Below, piece by piece: positions 42,101-50,396 of a stretch of DNA of 64,000 bases. The first letter of the stretch is position 1; each line of letters opens with the position of its first letter. The DNA is taken from NCBI RefSeq assembly GCF_045037415.1, contig NZ_CP173438.1; one strand, given 5' to 3'. Source of the DNA: Escherichia coli (GTDB lineage: Bacteria; Pseudomonadota; Gammaproteobacteria; Enterobacterales; Enterobacteriaceae). The position numbers are program-made.

Positions 42101-45100
42101 GGGCAAAAAGAGGTAGCGATGGACATTAGCTGGCACTTCCTGACCAATGTTCAGCACACCTATGACCGGGAGAAAAAGCTGGTGGAAAAATATGATGTCA
42201 GCACCACCGGAACAGGGGGCGGCGGTGGCGAATATCCATTACAGGATGGCTTTGGCTGGACCAATGGCGTGACGCTGAAAATGCTGGATTTGATCTGCCC
42301 GAAAGAGCAACCGTGTGACAATGTTCCGGCGACGCGTCCACTCAGTGAATCAACAACACAGCCGCTAAAACAAAAAGAGGCGGAACCTACGCCTTAACTT
42401 TACTGTATATCGAGCAATGCCATTACGTGCATAAAATTGGCATTGCTCTTTCTTCATCACGAAATACCACTCTTTCTACGGTCTATGCCTTTATTTTCTT
42501 TTATTAGAGAAGATTTTAATTTTATTTTATCAACTTGTTAATCATCACACCTCTATTTATATTTTCCCCCACTCCCCATTCTCCCTGACAATTTTCTTGT
42601 GGAACAAAGTGTTATTTAAGAAACAAGCAAATCATTCTGTCTCTTTAGACAAATTTTGACATCAAACATGATCTTTTTCGCTATATGTGTAAGTATATAG
42701 CGGTTTTAATTATCAGGATATTACTTATGTCACTAACCAGACGGAGGTTTACACAGATTCTTGCGTCGACATTGTTCCTGCATCATCTGCCGTCCTTTGC
42801 ACAATCAGTCAAATTCTGGGCCTCACTGACGCTTCCCGAAGCCCAACACATTACACGCATCGTCAGCGCAGGCGCGCCCGCCGATTTACTATTGCTGGCT
42901 GTCGCGCCAGAAAAAATGGTCGGTTTTTCCTCTTTTGATTTTGCCCGTCAGGCATTAATTCCATTGCCAGAGCACATTCGCCAGTTCCCCAGGCTGGGAC
43001 GACTCGCCGGGCGCGCCAGCACACTCTCGCTGGAAGGGCTTATGGCGTTACATCCCGATTTGGTCGTTGATTGCGGCAATACGGATGAAACCTGGATCTC
43101 CCAGGCACGGCAGGTTAGCGAACAGACACAAATACCCTGGTTATTGCTTAACGGGAAACTGGAACAATCAGCAGAACAGTTAACAACGCTTGGCAAAACG
43201 TTAGGCGAAGAGCACCGCGCCGCAGAACAAGCCAATCTCGCCAGCCGCTTCGTTGGTGAAGCTCAGGCATTCGCCACCTCACCCGCCGCTAATCTCAGCT
43301 TTTATGCTGCGCGCGGTCCTCGAGGGCTGGAAACGGGCTTACAGGGTTCGTTGCATACCGAGGCGGCGGAATTATTAGGTTTGCACAACGTCGCGCAAAT
43401 AGCCGATCGCCACGGTCTGACACAGGTTTCCATGGAAAATCTCCTGCGCTGGCAGCCGGATATTATTCTGGTTCAGGAGGCCGTTACTGCAGATTTTATT
43501 CGTCGTGATCCTCTCTGGCAGGGCGTGAAAGCGGTTGCGGAACAACGCATCTTATTTTTAAGTGGCCTGCCCTTTGGCTGGCTGGATGCCCCGCCGGGAA
43601 TCAACCGTCTTCTGGGATTACGCAGACTTCACGCCTGGCTGGATCCCGCCATCAATCGCCAGTTTAAAAGTGACATGCAGCATTACGCCCAACTGTTCTG
43701 GCATTGTTCACTCAGTGACGCCGACTATCAAAAATTGGTGGCGAGCTAATGAGAACCGTAAACGGATGTATTTTGCTGCTGGCAGCTATCAGTATCACTT
43801 TTGCCGCCGTAAGTGGGGCTTATCATCTCGATATGCAGCAACTGCTGGCGCTCATTCTTCGTCAAGAAAATGTTCCTGTGCAGGAACAAATTGTCTTCTG
43901 GCAAATCCGCGTGCCGCGTATTCTTGCTGCGCTGTTTCTGGGCGCGGCGCTGGCAGGGGCCGGAACCACCTATCAGGGAATGTTCCGTAATCCCTTAGTG
44001 TCACCGGATATTTTAGGCGTCTCCGCCGGTGCCGGACTTGGTGCCTGCGCGGCAATCCTGTGGGGATTATCCATTGTTTACATCCAGCTGTACGCATTTT
44101 GCGGCGGGCTGATGGTGGTCGCGGGCGTCTGGTTGATTACGCGTCGGGTGACCCGCCACGATCCGATCTTAACCCTGGTGCTGGTAGGCATTGCGTTAGG
44201 AACGTTGTGCGGAGCGGGGATATCGCTAATAAAAACGCTGGCCGATCCTTACACCCAGTTACCGTCAATTACCTTCTGGTTGCTGGGGGGGCTGTCCACC
44301 GTGACCTTACGCGATCTCTGCTATGCTGCACCGATCATTCTCATAGGCTCCTTGCCCCTGTTTTTTCTCCGCTGGCGCATGAATTTACTCACGCTTTCCG
44401 ACGACGAAGCCCGTTCGCTGGGACTGAACGTGACACGTCTGCGCTTTGGATTGATTGTCTGCGCCACACTCATCACCGCCAGCACGGTAGCAATAGCAGG
44501 CATAATTGGTTGGGTCGGCCTGGTCGTTCCGCACATTGCCCGCTTGTTGACCGGTCATAACCATCAGCAGCTGTTGCCCATGGCAATGTGTACTGGCGCG
44601 ATTCTGCTCCTGCTTACCGATACGCTGGCACGCAGCATTGGAACAACAGAAATCCCACTTGGCATTCTGACCGCTTTTGTTGGTGCACCGTTTTTCCTGT
44701 TTTTGTTGTTACGCGGAGGTCGCCAGTGACTTTGCTTGCCGTCCGTCATGCGTCTCTGGGTTACTCCCGCCATCCGGTGCTACGCGACGTGTCCTTCACC
44801 CTGTCGCAAGGAACAATTTGTTGTCTGTTAGGAGCCAATGGTTGCGGCAAAACCACACTCATGCGCTCCATTCTTGGCGTTATACCGTTATTAAAAGGCG
44901 AGATCTTACTGGATAGCCTCCCTGTGCAGACACTCAGCCATCGCCAGCGCGCGCAGGCTATTGCCTGGGTGCCGCAGGCGCACGACGGCATTTTTGCTTT
45001 TAGTGTGCTGGATATGGTGTTGATGGGCCTGGCCCCCACCATAGGCGCTTTTTCCGTTCCCGGTAAGCAAGAACGCCTGAAAGCAACGGAGCAACTGGAA

Positions 45101-48100: not shown

Positions 48101-50396
48101 CTGGCTGATTTGAAAAATAAAAAAGGCAGCTACAGCCATTATTCCGATTACAGCGACGGTGCCGGGTTACAACTGGCAGCCGATGTGCGTGAAAACGATC
48201 TGCTGTCGTTTGCCGTTAACTGGAAAGATGACGTACACCGGGAAAAAGGTGCGCCGCACGCCGCTTACGATCGCTATGAAGATCGTACCTGGTCGCTCGC
48301 CAGTGAATATCAATGGGCTGCTGCCGATAATGTCGATGTCGTGGCTGGAATCAGCTATGACTGGCGCGATAGCGTAGAAGCGAAAAAACATGAGAAAGAT
48401 GGCAGTATCACCCATTATGACGACAACAATCAGTCAGCTTTTAACTGGCAGGTGATGGGGAAATACCACTTTGCCAATGAAGACACGCTGGCGCTTTCGT
48501 ACTATGACCGCACACGCTTTCCGACGCTGAAAGAACGCTATACCACGTCCAAACCTGCGTATAACCAGATAGCGATTGTTAACCCGCAGCTCAAGCCGGA
48601 ACGCGCGCGCGGGGTGGATTTAACCTGGAATGGTGCCTTCACGCACGACTGGGGATTTGAGGTCAGCGTTTACTATAACCGGGTGAGTGATGCCATCCTC
48701 TCGCACAATATCGATGCCGATACCATTCAAAATCAGAACAGCGGCACGGTGGATTACAGCGGTCTGGATGCCGGTATTAAGGGGAAAATCAGCAATATAC
48801 TGGATGTAGGATTGAGCTACGCCCTGATCCACGCTGATGCCAAACGCAAAGACATCGGCAAGATAACCGATCTGCCAACGCAGACAATGACCGCATGGAT
48901 GACTCTCAAACCGTGGGAGCCGTTAAGCGTAACGCTGTCGGAAGAGGCGCGTTCCTCCAGCTACAGCAACAGTGACGGTTCACAAAAAGCCGCCGGTTTT
49001 GCGGTGACTCACATTCGAGCCGATTACACCTTAGGTCATGGCTTCAGCGTTAATGCGTCGGTCAATAACCTGTTTGATACCAAATATGCCTACAGTGAAG
49101 GGTTTATTGAAGAAGGTCGCAATTTCTGGGCAGGTATCGAGTATACGTTCTGATGTGAAAGCGGATAGCGGCATCTGTATCGCTATCCGCCTTATGAAAA
49201 TCTTATTCTCTTCGCAGGAGGCGGAATACGCCCAGCACCAGGATAGCGCCCACCACCGCCACCAGGAAGCTGTGCAAATTAAAACCGCTGATGGAGCCGC
49301 CAATGCCAAACATGGTCGCCAGCCAGCCGCCGACCACCGCACCGACTATCCCAAGAATACAGGTCAGGAAAAATCCACCACCATCTCGCCCCGGCATGAT
49401 TAGCTTGGCGATAATGCCGGCTATCAGGCCAAAAATAATCCAGGCAATAATTCCCATGTTCAGGCCCTCGTTTCGATGAATCGGACGCAAGAAATGCTTA
49501 CGTCAACGCTCTAAGTATAGGCAAGGGCGGGATCGATGCTGGGCATATGTCGGCTGATTTAAGAACAACATGTAAAAAATATTCGCGCATTTGTATTAAG
49601 TTTTGTTAACTGCGACCGATAAACCAAAGACAGTTTGTCAGTCAGGAGTTTTTCCGCGTGAGTCATTACCATGAGCAGTTCCTGAAACAAAATCCGTTAG
49701 CCGTCCTGGGCGTGTTACGCGATTTGAACAAAGCCGCAATTCCTTTGCGTATCAGCTGGAATGGCGGGCAGCTGATCAGCAAAATACTGGCAATAACTCC
49801 GGATAAACTGGTGCTGGATTTCGGCAGCCAGGCCGAAGACAACATCGCCGTGCTAAAGGCGCAGCACATTACCATTACCGCCGAAACTCAGGGTGCGAAA
49901 GTCGAGTTTACTGTTGAACAACTACAGCAGAGTGAATACTTGCAGCTTCCGGCATTTATTACCGTACCGCCTCCCACCTTATGGTTTGTACAACGACGCC
50001 GATATTTCCGCATCACCGCCCCACTCCATCCGCCTTATTTTTGCCAGACCAAACTGGCGGATAACAGTACGTTACGTTTCCGCCTGTATGATTTGTCGTT
50101 AGGCGGCATGGGCGCATTACTGGAAACAGCAAAGCCTGCCGAATTACACGAAGGCATGCGCTTCGCTCAGATTGAAGTCAACATGGGGCAATGGGGTGTT
50201 TTTCACTTTGACGCCCAGTTAATCTCCATCAGCGAGCGCAAAGTGATTGATGGCAAAAATGAAACCATCACCACTCCCCGTCTGAGCTTCCGTTTTCTTA
50301 ACGTCAGCCCGACGGTGGAGCGGCAATTACAGCGGATTATTTTCTCTCTCGAGCGAGAAGCCCGGAAAAAAGCGGACAATGTGCGTGACTGATTTA

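What the first reader, a model, noticed from the sequence alone, without database searches (positions are those of the whole stretch)
42685..49153. TonB-dependent receptor / ABC importer / methyltransferase / ModD-like cluster inserted between treA and ymgE
In K-12, as I recall, treA is followed by ycgY and ymgE. Here a six-gene cluster (Tat-signal substrate-binding protein, FecCD permease, ATPase, SAM-methyltransferase-like, ModD/NadC-like and a TonB-dependent receptor) occupies that space. The combination suggests uptake of a metal chelate or cofactor-like substrate, with an unusual pairing of methyltransferase and phosphoribosyltransferase-like enzymes.
Basis: partly seen in the sequence, partly recalled or inferred. 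Interest (0 to 1): 0.4.

Follow-up and report, generated by a model that had tools for sequence, protein, structure and literature searches.

The report
Molybdenum-regulated TonB/ABC uptake operon
The six-gene cluster between treA and ymgE is real and is the known "prrA-modD-yc73-fepC" island annotated as iron transport, but it carries a conserved binding site for the molybdate sensor ModE rather than an iron (Fur) box, so it most likely scavenges molybdenum, and K-12 lost it rather than this strain gaining it.

Summary
An E. coli ST131 window carries six co-oriented, translationally coupled genes between treA and ymgE: a Tat-signal binding protein, a FecCD permease, an ATPase, a SAM methyltransferase, ModD and a TonB-dependent receptor. 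K-12 lacks them.

The cluster is already known as prrA-modD-yc73-fepC, or O-island 55 of O157:H7. The literature treats it as putative iron uptake.

- **No Fur box.** A perfect 24-bp ModE operator (42679-42702) lies 24 nt before the start codon. It has the same format as the K-12 modA and moaA palindromes. It recurs upstream of the binding-protein gene or the receptor gene, and nowhere else, in 46 orthologous loci.
- **Not an insertion.** The cluster sits at treA-ymgE in E. albertii, Citrobacter and Raoultella too. K-12 still holds the last 24 bp of the receptor gene.
- **Molybdenum, not iron.** The permease's best solved homologue is Haemophilus MolB, a molybdate importer. ModD is embedded in modABC operons in other phyla. 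The Pseudomonas receptor orthologue sits next to moaA and narGHJI.

Best reading: a ModE-repressed, TonB-dependent molybdenum acquisition system. The transported species and the roles of the two enzymes are unknown. Nothing was tested experimentally.

The parts
42656..42661 (+). TTGACA, candidate -35 hexamer 17 nt upstream of the operator
   Evidence: Read from the sequence. TTGAYA sits at the same offset in E. albertii, Citrobacter and Raoultella. The consensus promoter scan did not call a promoter here, so this is an inference.
42679..42702 (.). ModE operator CGCTATATGTGTAAGTATATAGCG (palindrome), ending 24 nt before the start codon
   Evidence: It is the only match in the 64-kb window to CGNTATAT-N7-TAYATANCG: 0 mismatches, against 0.09 expected at <=2 mismatches. 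It has the same 24-nt format as K-12 modA CGTTATATTGTCGCCTACATAACG and moaA CGCTATATACATGATTACATAGCG. It is conserved upstream of orthologous operons in 38 of 46 loci, with 0 boxes elsewhere in 905 kb and 0 in shuffles.
42727..43749 (+). Periplasmic substrate-binding protein (340 aa) with a twin-arginine signal, cluster A / Peripla_BP_2 type
   Evidence: Pfam PF01497. The RRxF motif is conserved in 24 orthologues. The AlphaFold model has pLDDT 88.7. The best solved relatives are 4pag (ligand unknown), then MolA 3psa. RefSeq start.
43749..44729 (+). FecCD-family (type II ABC) permease
   Evidence: PF01032, 299 bits. The best PDB match is H. influenzae HI1471 (MolB) at 222 bits, against 175 bits or less for FhuB, HmuU and BtuC. 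Its start overlaps the preceding stop codon.
44726..45484 (+). ABC ATPase
   Evidence: PF00005. HI1470 (MolC) is the best importer-type PDB match, 126.5 bits. It overlaps the permease gene by 4 nt.
45494..46306 (+). Class I SAM-dependent methyltransferase ('yc73'), cytoplasmic, substrate unknown
   Evidence: Methyltransf_25/31. The model has pLDDT 88.6. Its fold matches only generic small-molecule N-/O-/C-/S-methyltransferases, TM about 0.5. The gene accompanies the transporter even in the five-gene form without ModD.
46303..47157 (+). ModD, a quinolinate-phosphoribosyltransferase-like protein
   Evidence: TIGR01334: 501.9 bits against a cutoff of 178.85. NadC TIGR00078: 135.7 bits, below its cutoff of 198.4. 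The alignment to M. tuberculosis QAPRTase keeps the R-K, H-R, E and D positions but replaces Lys172 with an invariant Phe163. In other phyla the gene sits inside or next to modABC.
47183..49153 (+). TonB-dependent receptor ('prrA', 656 aa) with a signal peptide and the TonB box DTLTVWSSP
   Evidence: Plug plus barrel domains. It is below the cutoff of every named NCBIfam receptor family, and only weak plug-domain PDB matches exist. The TonB box and the C-terminal GRNxWxGxEYxF are conserved in all orthologues. Orthologues are preceded by their own ModE box in Proteus, Morganella, Providencia, Pectobacterium, Serratia, Shewanella and P. aeruginosa.
49130..49153 (+). Last 24 bp of the receptor ORF, retained in K-12 as a relic
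   Evidence: Homology to K-12 (97.6%) resumes exactly here. K-12 reads GCAGGTGTCGAGTATACGTTCTGA.
49161..49190 (.). Inverted repeat GCGGATAGCG...CGCTATCCGC between the convergent receptor gene and ymgE; possible shared terminator
   Evidence: Read from the sequence. The terminator scan did not call it because it lacks a T-run. Low confidence.

Best explanation
This is a single operon repressed by molybdate-bound ModE and switched on when molybdenum is scarce. It encodes a two-membrane molybdenum acquisition route.

1. The TonB-dependent receptor takes a molybdenum species across the outer membrane. The species could be molybdate or tungstate itself, or a small organic Mo complex.
2. The Tat-exported binding protein hands it to a MolBC-like type II ABC importer.
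3. Two cytoplasmic enzymes, a small-molecule SAM methyltransferase and the quinolinate-phosphoribosyltransferase-like ModD, act on the cargo or on incoming molybdenum in an unknown way.

The locus is ancestral at treA-ymgE in Escherichia and its relatives. It was deleted in the lineage leading to K-12.

Shown here: gene content, operator sequence, its conservation and position, synteny, and the deletion relic. Inferred: ModE binding, repression, the molybdenum cargo, and the enzyme roles.
For: Operator:
- A perfect 24-bp ModE-type palindrome lies 24 nt upstream of the start codon. It is the only such site in 64 kb.
- It has the same format as the palindromes upstream of K-12 modA (19 nt before the ATG) and moaA.

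Phylogenetic footprint:
- In 46 loci with the transporter, from more than 15 genera at 44-98% protein identity, all 54 boxes with <=1 mismatch lie within 300 bp upstream of the binding-protein gene (38 loci) or the receptor gene (16 loci).
- None lies elsewhere in 905 kb, and none appears in shuffles.
- Most boxes end 16-46 nt before the start codon. That leaves no room for a promoter downstream of the box, which fits repression as at modA.
- The box is also present in O157:H7, Shewanella and Edwardsiella.
- In P. aeruginosa a 2-mismatch palindrome lies 15 nt before the receptor orthologue. That gene is adjacent to a periplasmic Oxidored_molyb protein, moaA and narGHJI.

Protein homology:
- The permease is closest to H. 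influenzae MolB among solved structures, and the ATPase to MolC.
- MolBC-A is described as a molybdate importer whose genes sit next to modD in Haemophilus (PMC4245157, PMC3928620).
- ModD is found within modA-modB-modD-modC in Aquificae and beside modABC or modE in Chlorobi, Spirochaetes and Alcaligenaceae. It is also in the Zymomonas nif cluster, together with modE and two TonB-dependent transporters (PMC8594446).

Other points:
- Molybdate-bound ModE represses Mo uptake genes (PMC11672702).
- There is no Fur box and no riboswitch.
Against: - No experiment was done: ModE binding, Mo-dependent expression and Mo transport are all untested.
- The binding protein is only distantly related to MolA (21% identity, the third-best structural hit). 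Its best relative, 4pag, has no known ligand. Homology therefore does not fix the ligand.
- This binding-protein class and TonB-dependent receptors usually carry chelates or cofactors, not free oxyanions. I know of no TonB-dependent molybdenum transporter that has been established.
- The methyltransferase and ModD have no assigned chemistry.
- That the K-12 modA and moaA palindromes are the ModE footprints rests on my recollection of the footprinting literature. I could not confirm it from a held paper.
- ModE also activates some promoters (recalled), so the direction of control is inferred from position only.
Confidence: 0.7

Rival explanations
1. It is a Fur-controlled ferric-chelate or siderophore uptake system, as the database names ('iron ABC transporter') and the older literature ('prrA-modD-yc73-fepC, proposed iron uptake') state.
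For: RefSeq product names. PMC1890555 and PMC12928451 call it putative iron uptake. Peripla_BP_2, FecCD and TonB-receptor architecture is typical of siderophore systems.
Against: There is no Fur box: the best match has 6 of 19 mismatches, equal to shuffled sequence. The receptor scores 127 bits against the 223.5-bit cutoff of the siderophore-receptor family. No binding-protein or permease model for a named iron system is reached. The conserved ModE operator and the links to Mo genes are unexplained by this reading. No paper I could read gives experimental iron data.
Confidence: 0.07
2. The cargo is not free molybdate but an organic molybdenum complex or a molybdenum-bearing cofactor or pterin salvaged from the environment. 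The methyltransferase and ModD modify or destroy the organic ligand in the cytoplasm to release or recycle the metal.
For: The TonB receptor plus BtuCD-class importer is the usual route for chelates and cofactors. A small-molecule methyltransferase is kept with the transporter in every form of the cluster, even where ModD is absent. The methyltransferase fold resembles natural-product methyltransferases. ModD keeps most of a pyridine-dicarboxylate-type active site. In P. aeruginosa the receptor is co-transcribed with a periplasmic Moco-domain-like protein.
Against: The permease is closest to MolB, which carries a small oxyanion (PMC4245157). ModD also occurs inside type I modABC operons that import free oxyanions. 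In Pseudomonas the receptor has no dedicated ABC importer nearby, which suggests its product can feed the ordinary molybdate route. No candidate ligand has been identified.
Confidence: 0.2
3. The ModE site activates rather than represses. The operon would then import something needed when molybdenum is plentiful, for example another cofactor precursor or a corrinoid, and not molybdenum itself.
For: ModE activates moaA, dmsA and napF in E. coli (recalled from the literature). There are weak NCBIfam similarities of the permease and ATPase to archaeal corrinoid transporters, and of the methyltransferase to CpaM.
Against: The box ends 16-46 nt before the start codon in most orthologues, so it overlaps or follows the promoter. 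That geometry matches modA repression, not upstream activation. All corrinoid-family scores are far below their cutoffs. There is no cobalamin riboswitch.
Confidence: 0.05

Closest known systems
prrA-modD-yc73-fepC cluster of UPEC CFT073; O-island 55 / S-loop 83 of E. coli O157:H7 (ECs1693-1699)
   Same: It is the same locus and the same genes. BEN2908 genomic region GR9 is bounded by ymgE and treA (PMC12928451). The O157:H7 copy is 95-98% identical.
   Different: The literature treats it as a strain-specific, pathogenicity-associated insertion for iron uptake. The evidence here points to ModE control, molybdenum, and an ancestral locus deleted in K-12.
MolBC-A (HI1470-HI1472) type II molybdate/tungstate ABC importer of Haemophilus influenzae, with adjacent modD (HI1473)
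   Same: The permease and ATPase are the closest solved homologues. Both have a type II (FecCD) architecture, a modD neighbour, and a role as a secondary Mo route beside ModABC (PMC3928620, PMC4245157).
   Different: The binding protein is only 21% identical to MolA and lies closer to the uncharacterised 4pag. The papers read list no TonB-dependent receptor or methyltransferase in the Haemophilus cluster. I did not examine ModE control of the Haemophilus genes.
ModABC high-affinity molybdate transporter and its ModE operator in E. coli
   Same: The operator has the same sequence format and the same position just upstream of the first gene. The presumed logic is the same: repression when molybdate is sufficient (PMC11672702).
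   Different: ModABC is a type I ABC system with a ModA-fold binding protein. It has no outer-membrane component and no accessory enzymes.
Quinolinate phosphoribosyltransferase (NadC)
   Same: ModD has both QRPTase domains. It keeps the Arg-Lys, His-Arg, Glu and Asp positions of the M. tuberculosis enzyme.
   Different: ModD scores below the NadC cutoff (135.7 against 198.4). Lys172 is replaced by an invariant Phe and Arg105 by Lys. Its genomic association is with Mo transport, not NAD synthesis.

Membership tests
ModE regulon (molybdate-responsive operators) | 24-bp palindrome of the form CGnTATAT-N7-TAYATAnCG, as found upstream of modA and moaA | tested here: met
   0 mismatches at 42679-42702. 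It is the only hit in 64 kb. The K-12 modA and moaA sequences were read directly.
ModE regulon (molybdate-responsive operators) | Site conserved at orthologous promoters in other species | tested here: met
   38 of 46 loci have a box upstream of the binding-protein gene and 16 upstream of the receptor gene. There are 0 boxes elsewhere in 905 kb and 0 in shuffles. The box is also present in Shewanella, Edwardsiella and P. aeruginosa.
ModE regulon (molybdate-responsive operators) | ModE-molybdate binds the site, and expression responds to molybdate or to modE | not testable with these tools
   Needs EMSA or footprinting and reporter or RNA measurements.
MolBC-A type II molybdate importer | FecCD-type permease and ATPase closest to MolB and MolC | tested here: met
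   HI1471 at 222 bits is the top PDB hit, ahead of FhuB at 175. HI1470 at 126.5 bits is the best importer ATPase.
MolBC-A type II molybdate importer | Binding protein orthologous to MolA | tested here: inconclusive
   Profile E-value 5e-14 to 3psa over the C-lobe only. Foldseek ranks it third at 21% identity. 4pag (unknown ligand) is much closer, at 9e-43.
MolBC-A type II molybdate importer | Binds and transports molybdate or tungstate | not testable with these tools
   Needs binding and uptake assays.
Fur-regulated TonB-dependent siderophore uptake | Fur box in the promoter | tested here: not met
   There is no match with <=3 mismatches in the window. The best match in the 330-bp upstream region has 6 mismatches, within the shuffle distribution.
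Fur-regulated TonB-dependent siderophore uptake | Receptor reaches the siderophore-receptor family threshold | tested here: not met
   TIGR01783 scores 127.2 bits against a cutoff of 223.5. All named receptor equivalogs are far below their cutoffs.
ModD (TIGR01334) | Score above the curated cutoff over the full length | tested here: met
   501.9 bits against 178.85, covering residues 2-278 of 277 profile positions.
ModD (TIGR01334) | Genomic linkage to molybdate transport genes | tested here: met
   ModD lies within or beside modABC in Aquificae, Chlorobi, Spirochaetes and Alcaligenaceae loci. It is next to molABC in Haemophilus.
Quinolinate phosphoribosyltransferase (NadC) | Reaches the NadC threshold and keeps all catalytic residues | tested here: not met
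   135.7 bits is below the 198.4 cutoff. Lys172 becomes Phe163, which is invariant in 13 ModD sequences. The residue roles are recalled from the M. tuberculosis structure papers.
Horizontally inserted genomic island | Compositional anomaly, mobility genes or a tRNA at the borders, and absence from the locus in sister taxa | tested here: not met
   GC is 0.49-0.57, like the flanks. No integrase or IS element is annotated. The cluster is at the same treA-ymgE position in E. albertii, Citrobacter, Raoultella and Enterobacter sp.. K-12 keeps a 24-bp relic of the receptor gene. The few plasmid records carrying it are large and non-mobilizable.

The most novel reading that the evidence does not exclude
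This receptor family is an energised, TonB-dependent outer-membrane transporter for molybdenum, and none has been established so far. It is conserved from E. coli pathotypes to Proteus, Shewanella and P. aeruginosa under ModE control. The cargo is molybdenum bound to an organic ligand, for example a catechol or pyridine-carboxylate type. The conserved methyltransferase and the quinolinate-phosphoribosyltransferase-like ModD free the metal in the cytoplasm by chemically disabling the ligand's donor atoms. That would be a release mechanism different from the reductases and esterases used for iron siderophores.
Probability: 0.15. Interest if true: 0.8.

Novelty: new variant of a known kind. Interest (0 to 1): 0.55.

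Why it matters
Molybdenum enzymes such as nitrate reductase, formate dehydrogenase and DMSO/TMAO reductases drive anaerobic respiration of Enterobacteriaceae in the inflamed gut and the urinary tract. The only well-studied uptake route is ModABC.

This cluster is carried by about 40% of complete E. coli genomes, including ST131, ST95 and O157:H7, and is missing from K-12. If it is a ModE-controlled, TonB-energised molybdenum scavenging system, three things follow:
- It would be the first outer-membrane step described for this metal.
- It would re-label a long-standing "iron" virulence-associated island.
- It would give a handle on the unexplained ModD family.

It would also explain why the system was overlooked: the laboratory strain deleted it. 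All of this is directly testable with simple genetics.

Tried and rejected
- **Fur box.** A consensus search with up to 3 mismatches found nothing. The best site in the promoter region has 6 mismatches, equal to chance.
- **Riboswitches (cobalamin, Moco) and other RNA families.** Nothing relevant at E <= 1 across 40000-51000.
- **Sigma-70 promoter and terminator scans.** Counts equal the shuffle expectation, and the scan mistook the operator palindrome for a terminator stem.
- **Binding-protein ligand from homology.** The closest structure, 4pag, has no known ligand, and MolA is distant. This stays unresolved.
- **Methyltransferase function from fold.** Only generic small-molecule methyltransferases matched, at TM about 0.5.
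- **Left deletion junction in K-12.** The 104 bp upstream of ycgY shows no significant similarity to the cluster promoter of E. coli, E. albertii or Citrobacter; scores equal shuffles. An apparent alignment from MAFFT was therefore discarded.
- **Plasmid carriage.** The 9 'plasmid' records are non-mobilizable pieces of 150 kb to 4.9 Mb, probably chromosomal.
- **Literature.**
  - No held paper links this cluster, or any TonB-dependent receptor, to ModE.
  - Ye & Xu 2001, Tirado-Lee 2011 and Studholme & Pau 2003 are not held. Prior notice of the ModE site, for example in RegPrecise or Studholme & Pau, cannot be excluded.
  - The Proteus modA-mutant transcriptome paper has no held supplement to check for de-repression.
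  - The P. aeruginosa molybdenum paper does not mention the receptor.

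
Full report
**What is there**

The window is E. coli ST131. It is 100% identical over 10 kb to strain EC958.

Six ORFs on the plus strand lie between treA (40700-42397) and ymgE (49203-49457, minus strand).
- a Peripla_BP_2 binding protein with an MSLTRRRF twin-arginine signal
- a FecCD permease
- an ABC ATPase
- a class I SAM methyltransferase
- ModD (TIGR01334, 501.9 bits against a cutoff of 178.85)
- a TonB-dependent receptor with plug and barrel domains

The genes overlap or abut at 43749, 44726-44729 and 46303-46306. Only 25 nt separate modD from the receptor gene. 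They are therefore read as one operon.

The first gene most likely starts at ATG 42727. That start has an AGGA Shine-Dalgarno sequence, is the RefSeq start, and is conserved in other genera. ATG 42685 is less likely.

**Is it known?**

Yes. This is the 'prrA-modD-yc73-fepC' cluster first noted in uropathogenic CFT073. It is also O-island 55 / S-loop 83 (ECs1693-1699) of O157:H7, and it was 'proposed to be involved in iron uptake' (PMC1890555). A 2026 genome paper lists it as region GR9, bounded by ymgE and treA, 'possibly mediating iron uptake' (PMC12928451). RefSeq calls the transporter genes 'iron ABC transporter'. I found no experimental work on it in the papers I could read.

**Distribution and direction of the polymorphism**

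The cluster is present in 2139 of 5426 complete E. coli genomes, among them ST131, ST95, IAI39 and O157:H7. The others carry ycgY between treA and ymgE.

The cluster is not an insertion in this strain. Four observations support this:
- Homology to K-12 ends at the treA stop (42398). It resumes at 49130, which is 24 bp inside the 3' end of the receptor ORF. K-12 reads GCAGGTGTCGAGTATACGTTCTGA there.
- Those codons specify the C-terminal ...AG(I/V)EYTF. This is part of a GRNxWxGxEYxF terminus conserved in every orthologue, including those at unrelated loci in Proteus or Morganella. The 24 bp are therefore a relic of the gene.
- The six genes sit between treA and ymgE/ycgR/emtA in E. albertii (which has both ycgY and the cluster), in eight Citrobacter species and in one unclassified Enterobacteriaceae genome (L068). 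In Raoultella, Enterobacter sp. and Intestinirhabdus they lie between treA and emtA, with no ymgE or ycgR detected.
- GC content is like the flanks, and there are no mobility genes.

The parsimonious history is an ancestral locus deleted in the lineage leading to K-12. The left breakpoint could not be resolved.

**Regulation: ModE, not Fur**

No Fur box exists. There is no match with up to 3 mismatches in the window. The best match in the 330-bp upstream region has 6 of 19 mismatches, as in shuffled sequence. No riboswitch was found.

Instead, 42679-42702 reads CGCTATATGTGTAAGTATATAGCG. This 24-bp palindrome ends 24 nt before the start codon. It has the same format as two palindromes I read directly upstream of K-12 genes:
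- modA: CGTTATATTGTCGCCTACATAACG, 19 nt before the ATG
- moaA: CGCTATATACATGATTACATAGCG

I recall from the footprinting literature that these are the ModE operators. That point rests on memory.

The pattern CGNTATAT-N7-TAYATANCG occurs once in the 64-kb window with 0 mismatches, against 0.09 expected even at 2 mismatches or fewer.

**Phylogenetic footprint**

I fetched 80 ModD-encoding loci from species-representative genomes. Forty-six have the transporter genes. In most of them all six genes stand in the same order. They come from Escherichia, Citrobacter, Raoultella, Klebsiella indica, Enterobacter, Symbiopectobacterium, Serratia, Pantoea, Erwinia, Pectobacterium, Affinibrenneria, Proteus, Morganella and Providencia.

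In these 905 kb there are 54 boxes with 1 mismatch or fewer. Every one lies within 300 bp upstream of the binding-protein gene (38 loci) or of the receptor gene (16 loci, where the modD-receptor spacer is longer). None lies elsewhere, and block-shuffled controls gave 0.

Most boxes end 16-46 nt from the start codon. That leaves no room for a promoter downstream of the site, so bound ModE should occlude the promoter or transcription start as at modA. This is an inference.

A TTGACA hexamer lies 17 nt upstream of the box (42656-42661). TTGAYA is kept at that offset in E. albertii, Citrobacter and Raoultella. The O157:H7 allele keeps a perfect box.

**Independent links to molybdenum**

1. Among solved structures the permease is closest to H. 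influenzae HI1471 (MolB): 222 bits, against 175 or less for FhuB, HmuU and BtuC. The ATPase is closest to HI1470 among importers. MolBC-A is described as a type II molybdate importer (PMC4245157). In Haemophilus it lies in modA-molABC-modD, HI1469-HI1475 (PMC3928620).
2. Outside Enterobacterales, ModD lies inside modA-modB-modD-modC in four Aquificae loci. It lies beside modABC in Chlorobi and Spirochaetes. In an Alcaligenaceae locus it is divergent from modABC, with ModE genes nearby and two boxes in the shared intergenic region.
3. The Zymomonas nif cluster holds modD, modE and two TonB-dependent transporters, and ModD rises during N2 fixation (PMC8594446, PMC8600466).
4. The receptor family extends beyond Enterobacterales:
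   - Shewanella and Edwardsiella tarda have a five-gene form (binding protein, permease, ATPase, methyltransferase, receptor; no ModD). It carries perfect or near-perfect boxes before the binding-protein gene and, in Shewanella, before the receptor gene.
   - In P. aeruginosa a 45%-identical orthologue stands alone. It is preceded at 15 nt by the palindrome CGTTATGTAAAAAAATGCATAACG. It overlaps a gene for a small signal-peptide-bearing Oxidored_molyb-domain protein. It is adjacent to moaA and narGHJI.

**What remains open**

- **The binding protein.** It models well (pLDDT 88.7), but its nearest structure is 4pag from Sulfurospirillum, whose ligand is unknown. MolA is third at 21% identity. 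Homology does not say whether the cargo is free molybdate or a complex.
- **The receptor.** It is below the cutoff of every named receptor family and has only weak plug-domain matches in the PDB.
- **The methyltransferase.** It models well (pLDDT 88.6), but it resembles only generic small-molecule methyltransferases. It travels with the transporter in all forms of the cluster. In other Edwardsiella species a methyltransferase-ModD pair stands alone behind its own box.
- **ModD.** It keeps the Arg-Lys, His-Arg, Glu and Asp positions of M. tuberculosis quinolinate phosphoribosyltransferase. It replaces Lys172 by an invariant Phe and Arg105 by Lys (residue roles recalled). It scores below the NadC cutoff. 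It is probably an active phosphoribosyltransferase-like enzyme with a different substrate.

**Most likely mechanism**

When molybdate is sufficient, ModE-molybdate sits on the operator and the operon is off. When molybdenum is scarce, the operon is expressed and works in three steps:
1. The receptor uses TonB energy to bring a molybdenum species into the periplasm.
2. The Tat-exported binding protein and the MolBC-like importer move it to the cytoplasm.
3. The two enzymes act on the cargo or on incoming molybdenum.

I put 0.7 on this overall: about 0.85 on ModE control and about 0.65-0.7 on molybdenum being the cargo in some form.

The rivals are Fur/iron uptake (0.07), an organic Mo complex or cofactor as cargo with ligand-modifying enzymes (0.2, a refinement rather than a contradiction), and ModE activation of an unrelated import function (0.05).

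**Novelty**

The island itself is already known. What differs from the literature I could read is the regulatory assignment (ModE), the metal (molybdenum rather than iron), the direction of evolution (loss in K-12), and the recognition of a ModE-associated receptor family reaching Pseudomonas and Shewanella.

I could not read Studholme & Pau 2003 or consult RegPrecise. Earlier computational notice of the site is therefore possible. I rate it a new variant of a known kind: a Mol-type molybdate importer extended by an outer-membrane TonB step and two enzymes.

Interest is 0.55. The prediction is testable and would surprise specialists if confirmed, but it rests entirely on sequence inference.

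Noticed in passing
L088 8963-11525 (P. aeruginosa CP114086.1): A receptor orthologue (45% identity) is preceded at 15 nt by the palindrome CGTTATGTAAAAAAATGCATAACG. It overlaps a gene for a small (about 175 aa) signal-peptide-bearing Oxidored_molyb (PF00174) protein. It lies next to moaA and narGHJI. The small protein may be a periplasmic Mo- or Moco-binding partner.
   Followed up: partly
L090/L091 5216-11004 (Shewanella); L092 4282-9968 (Edwardsiella tarda): A five-gene form of the cluster lacks ModD but keeps the methyltransferase and has ModE boxes. Other Edwardsiella species carry a separate methyltransferase-ModD pair behind its own box (L025, L043, L051).
   Followed up: partly
L087 10936-11748 and 6149-7833 (O157:H7 strain Z1833): The methyltransferase gene has an internal stop (W215*) and treA is frameshifted, while the other five cluster genes and the ModE box are intact. 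I did not check whether this is lineage-wide.
   Followed up: partly
L007 4939-6334 (E. albertii NBRC 107761): E. albertii carries both a ycgY homologue (62% identity) and the six-gene cluster. About 0.9 kb lies between them (5430-6334) and matches neither K-12 nor the window. Its content was not examined.
   Followed up: no
P0142, P0124: There is a 486-aa truncated receptor annotated in Shigella flexneri (568 member sequences). There is also a 720-aa E. coli ORF that fuses receptor and YcgR (PilZ) domains. Both suggest further decay or deletion variants of this locus.
   Followed up: no
L005 (Collinsella sp. MAG contig JAIJJM010000374.1): A 3.2-kb contig binned as Collinsella (an actinobacterium) carries the ATPase, methyltransferase and ModD genes at 98-99% identity to E. 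coli. This is almost certainly contamination of the bin.
   Followed up: no
L044 and L045 (Affinibrenneria salicis scaffold 1, 143401-164240 and 910889-931728): Two copies of the whole cluster lie on one scaffold, in opposite orientation, with identical feature coordinates and identities. This is either a large duplication or an assembly artefact.
   Followed up: no
(PLSDB records CP088398.1, CP054248.1, NZ_CP134663.1 and others): Nine records labelled as plasmids carry the cluster. All are non-mobilizable and range from 150 kb to 4.9 Mb, so they look like chromosomal pieces filed as plasmids.
   Followed up: no
window 49161-49190: A 10-bp inverted repeat (GCGGATAGCG / CGCTATCCGC) lies between the convergent receptor gene and ymgE. 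It is retained in K-12 and may be a shared terminator.
   Followed up: no
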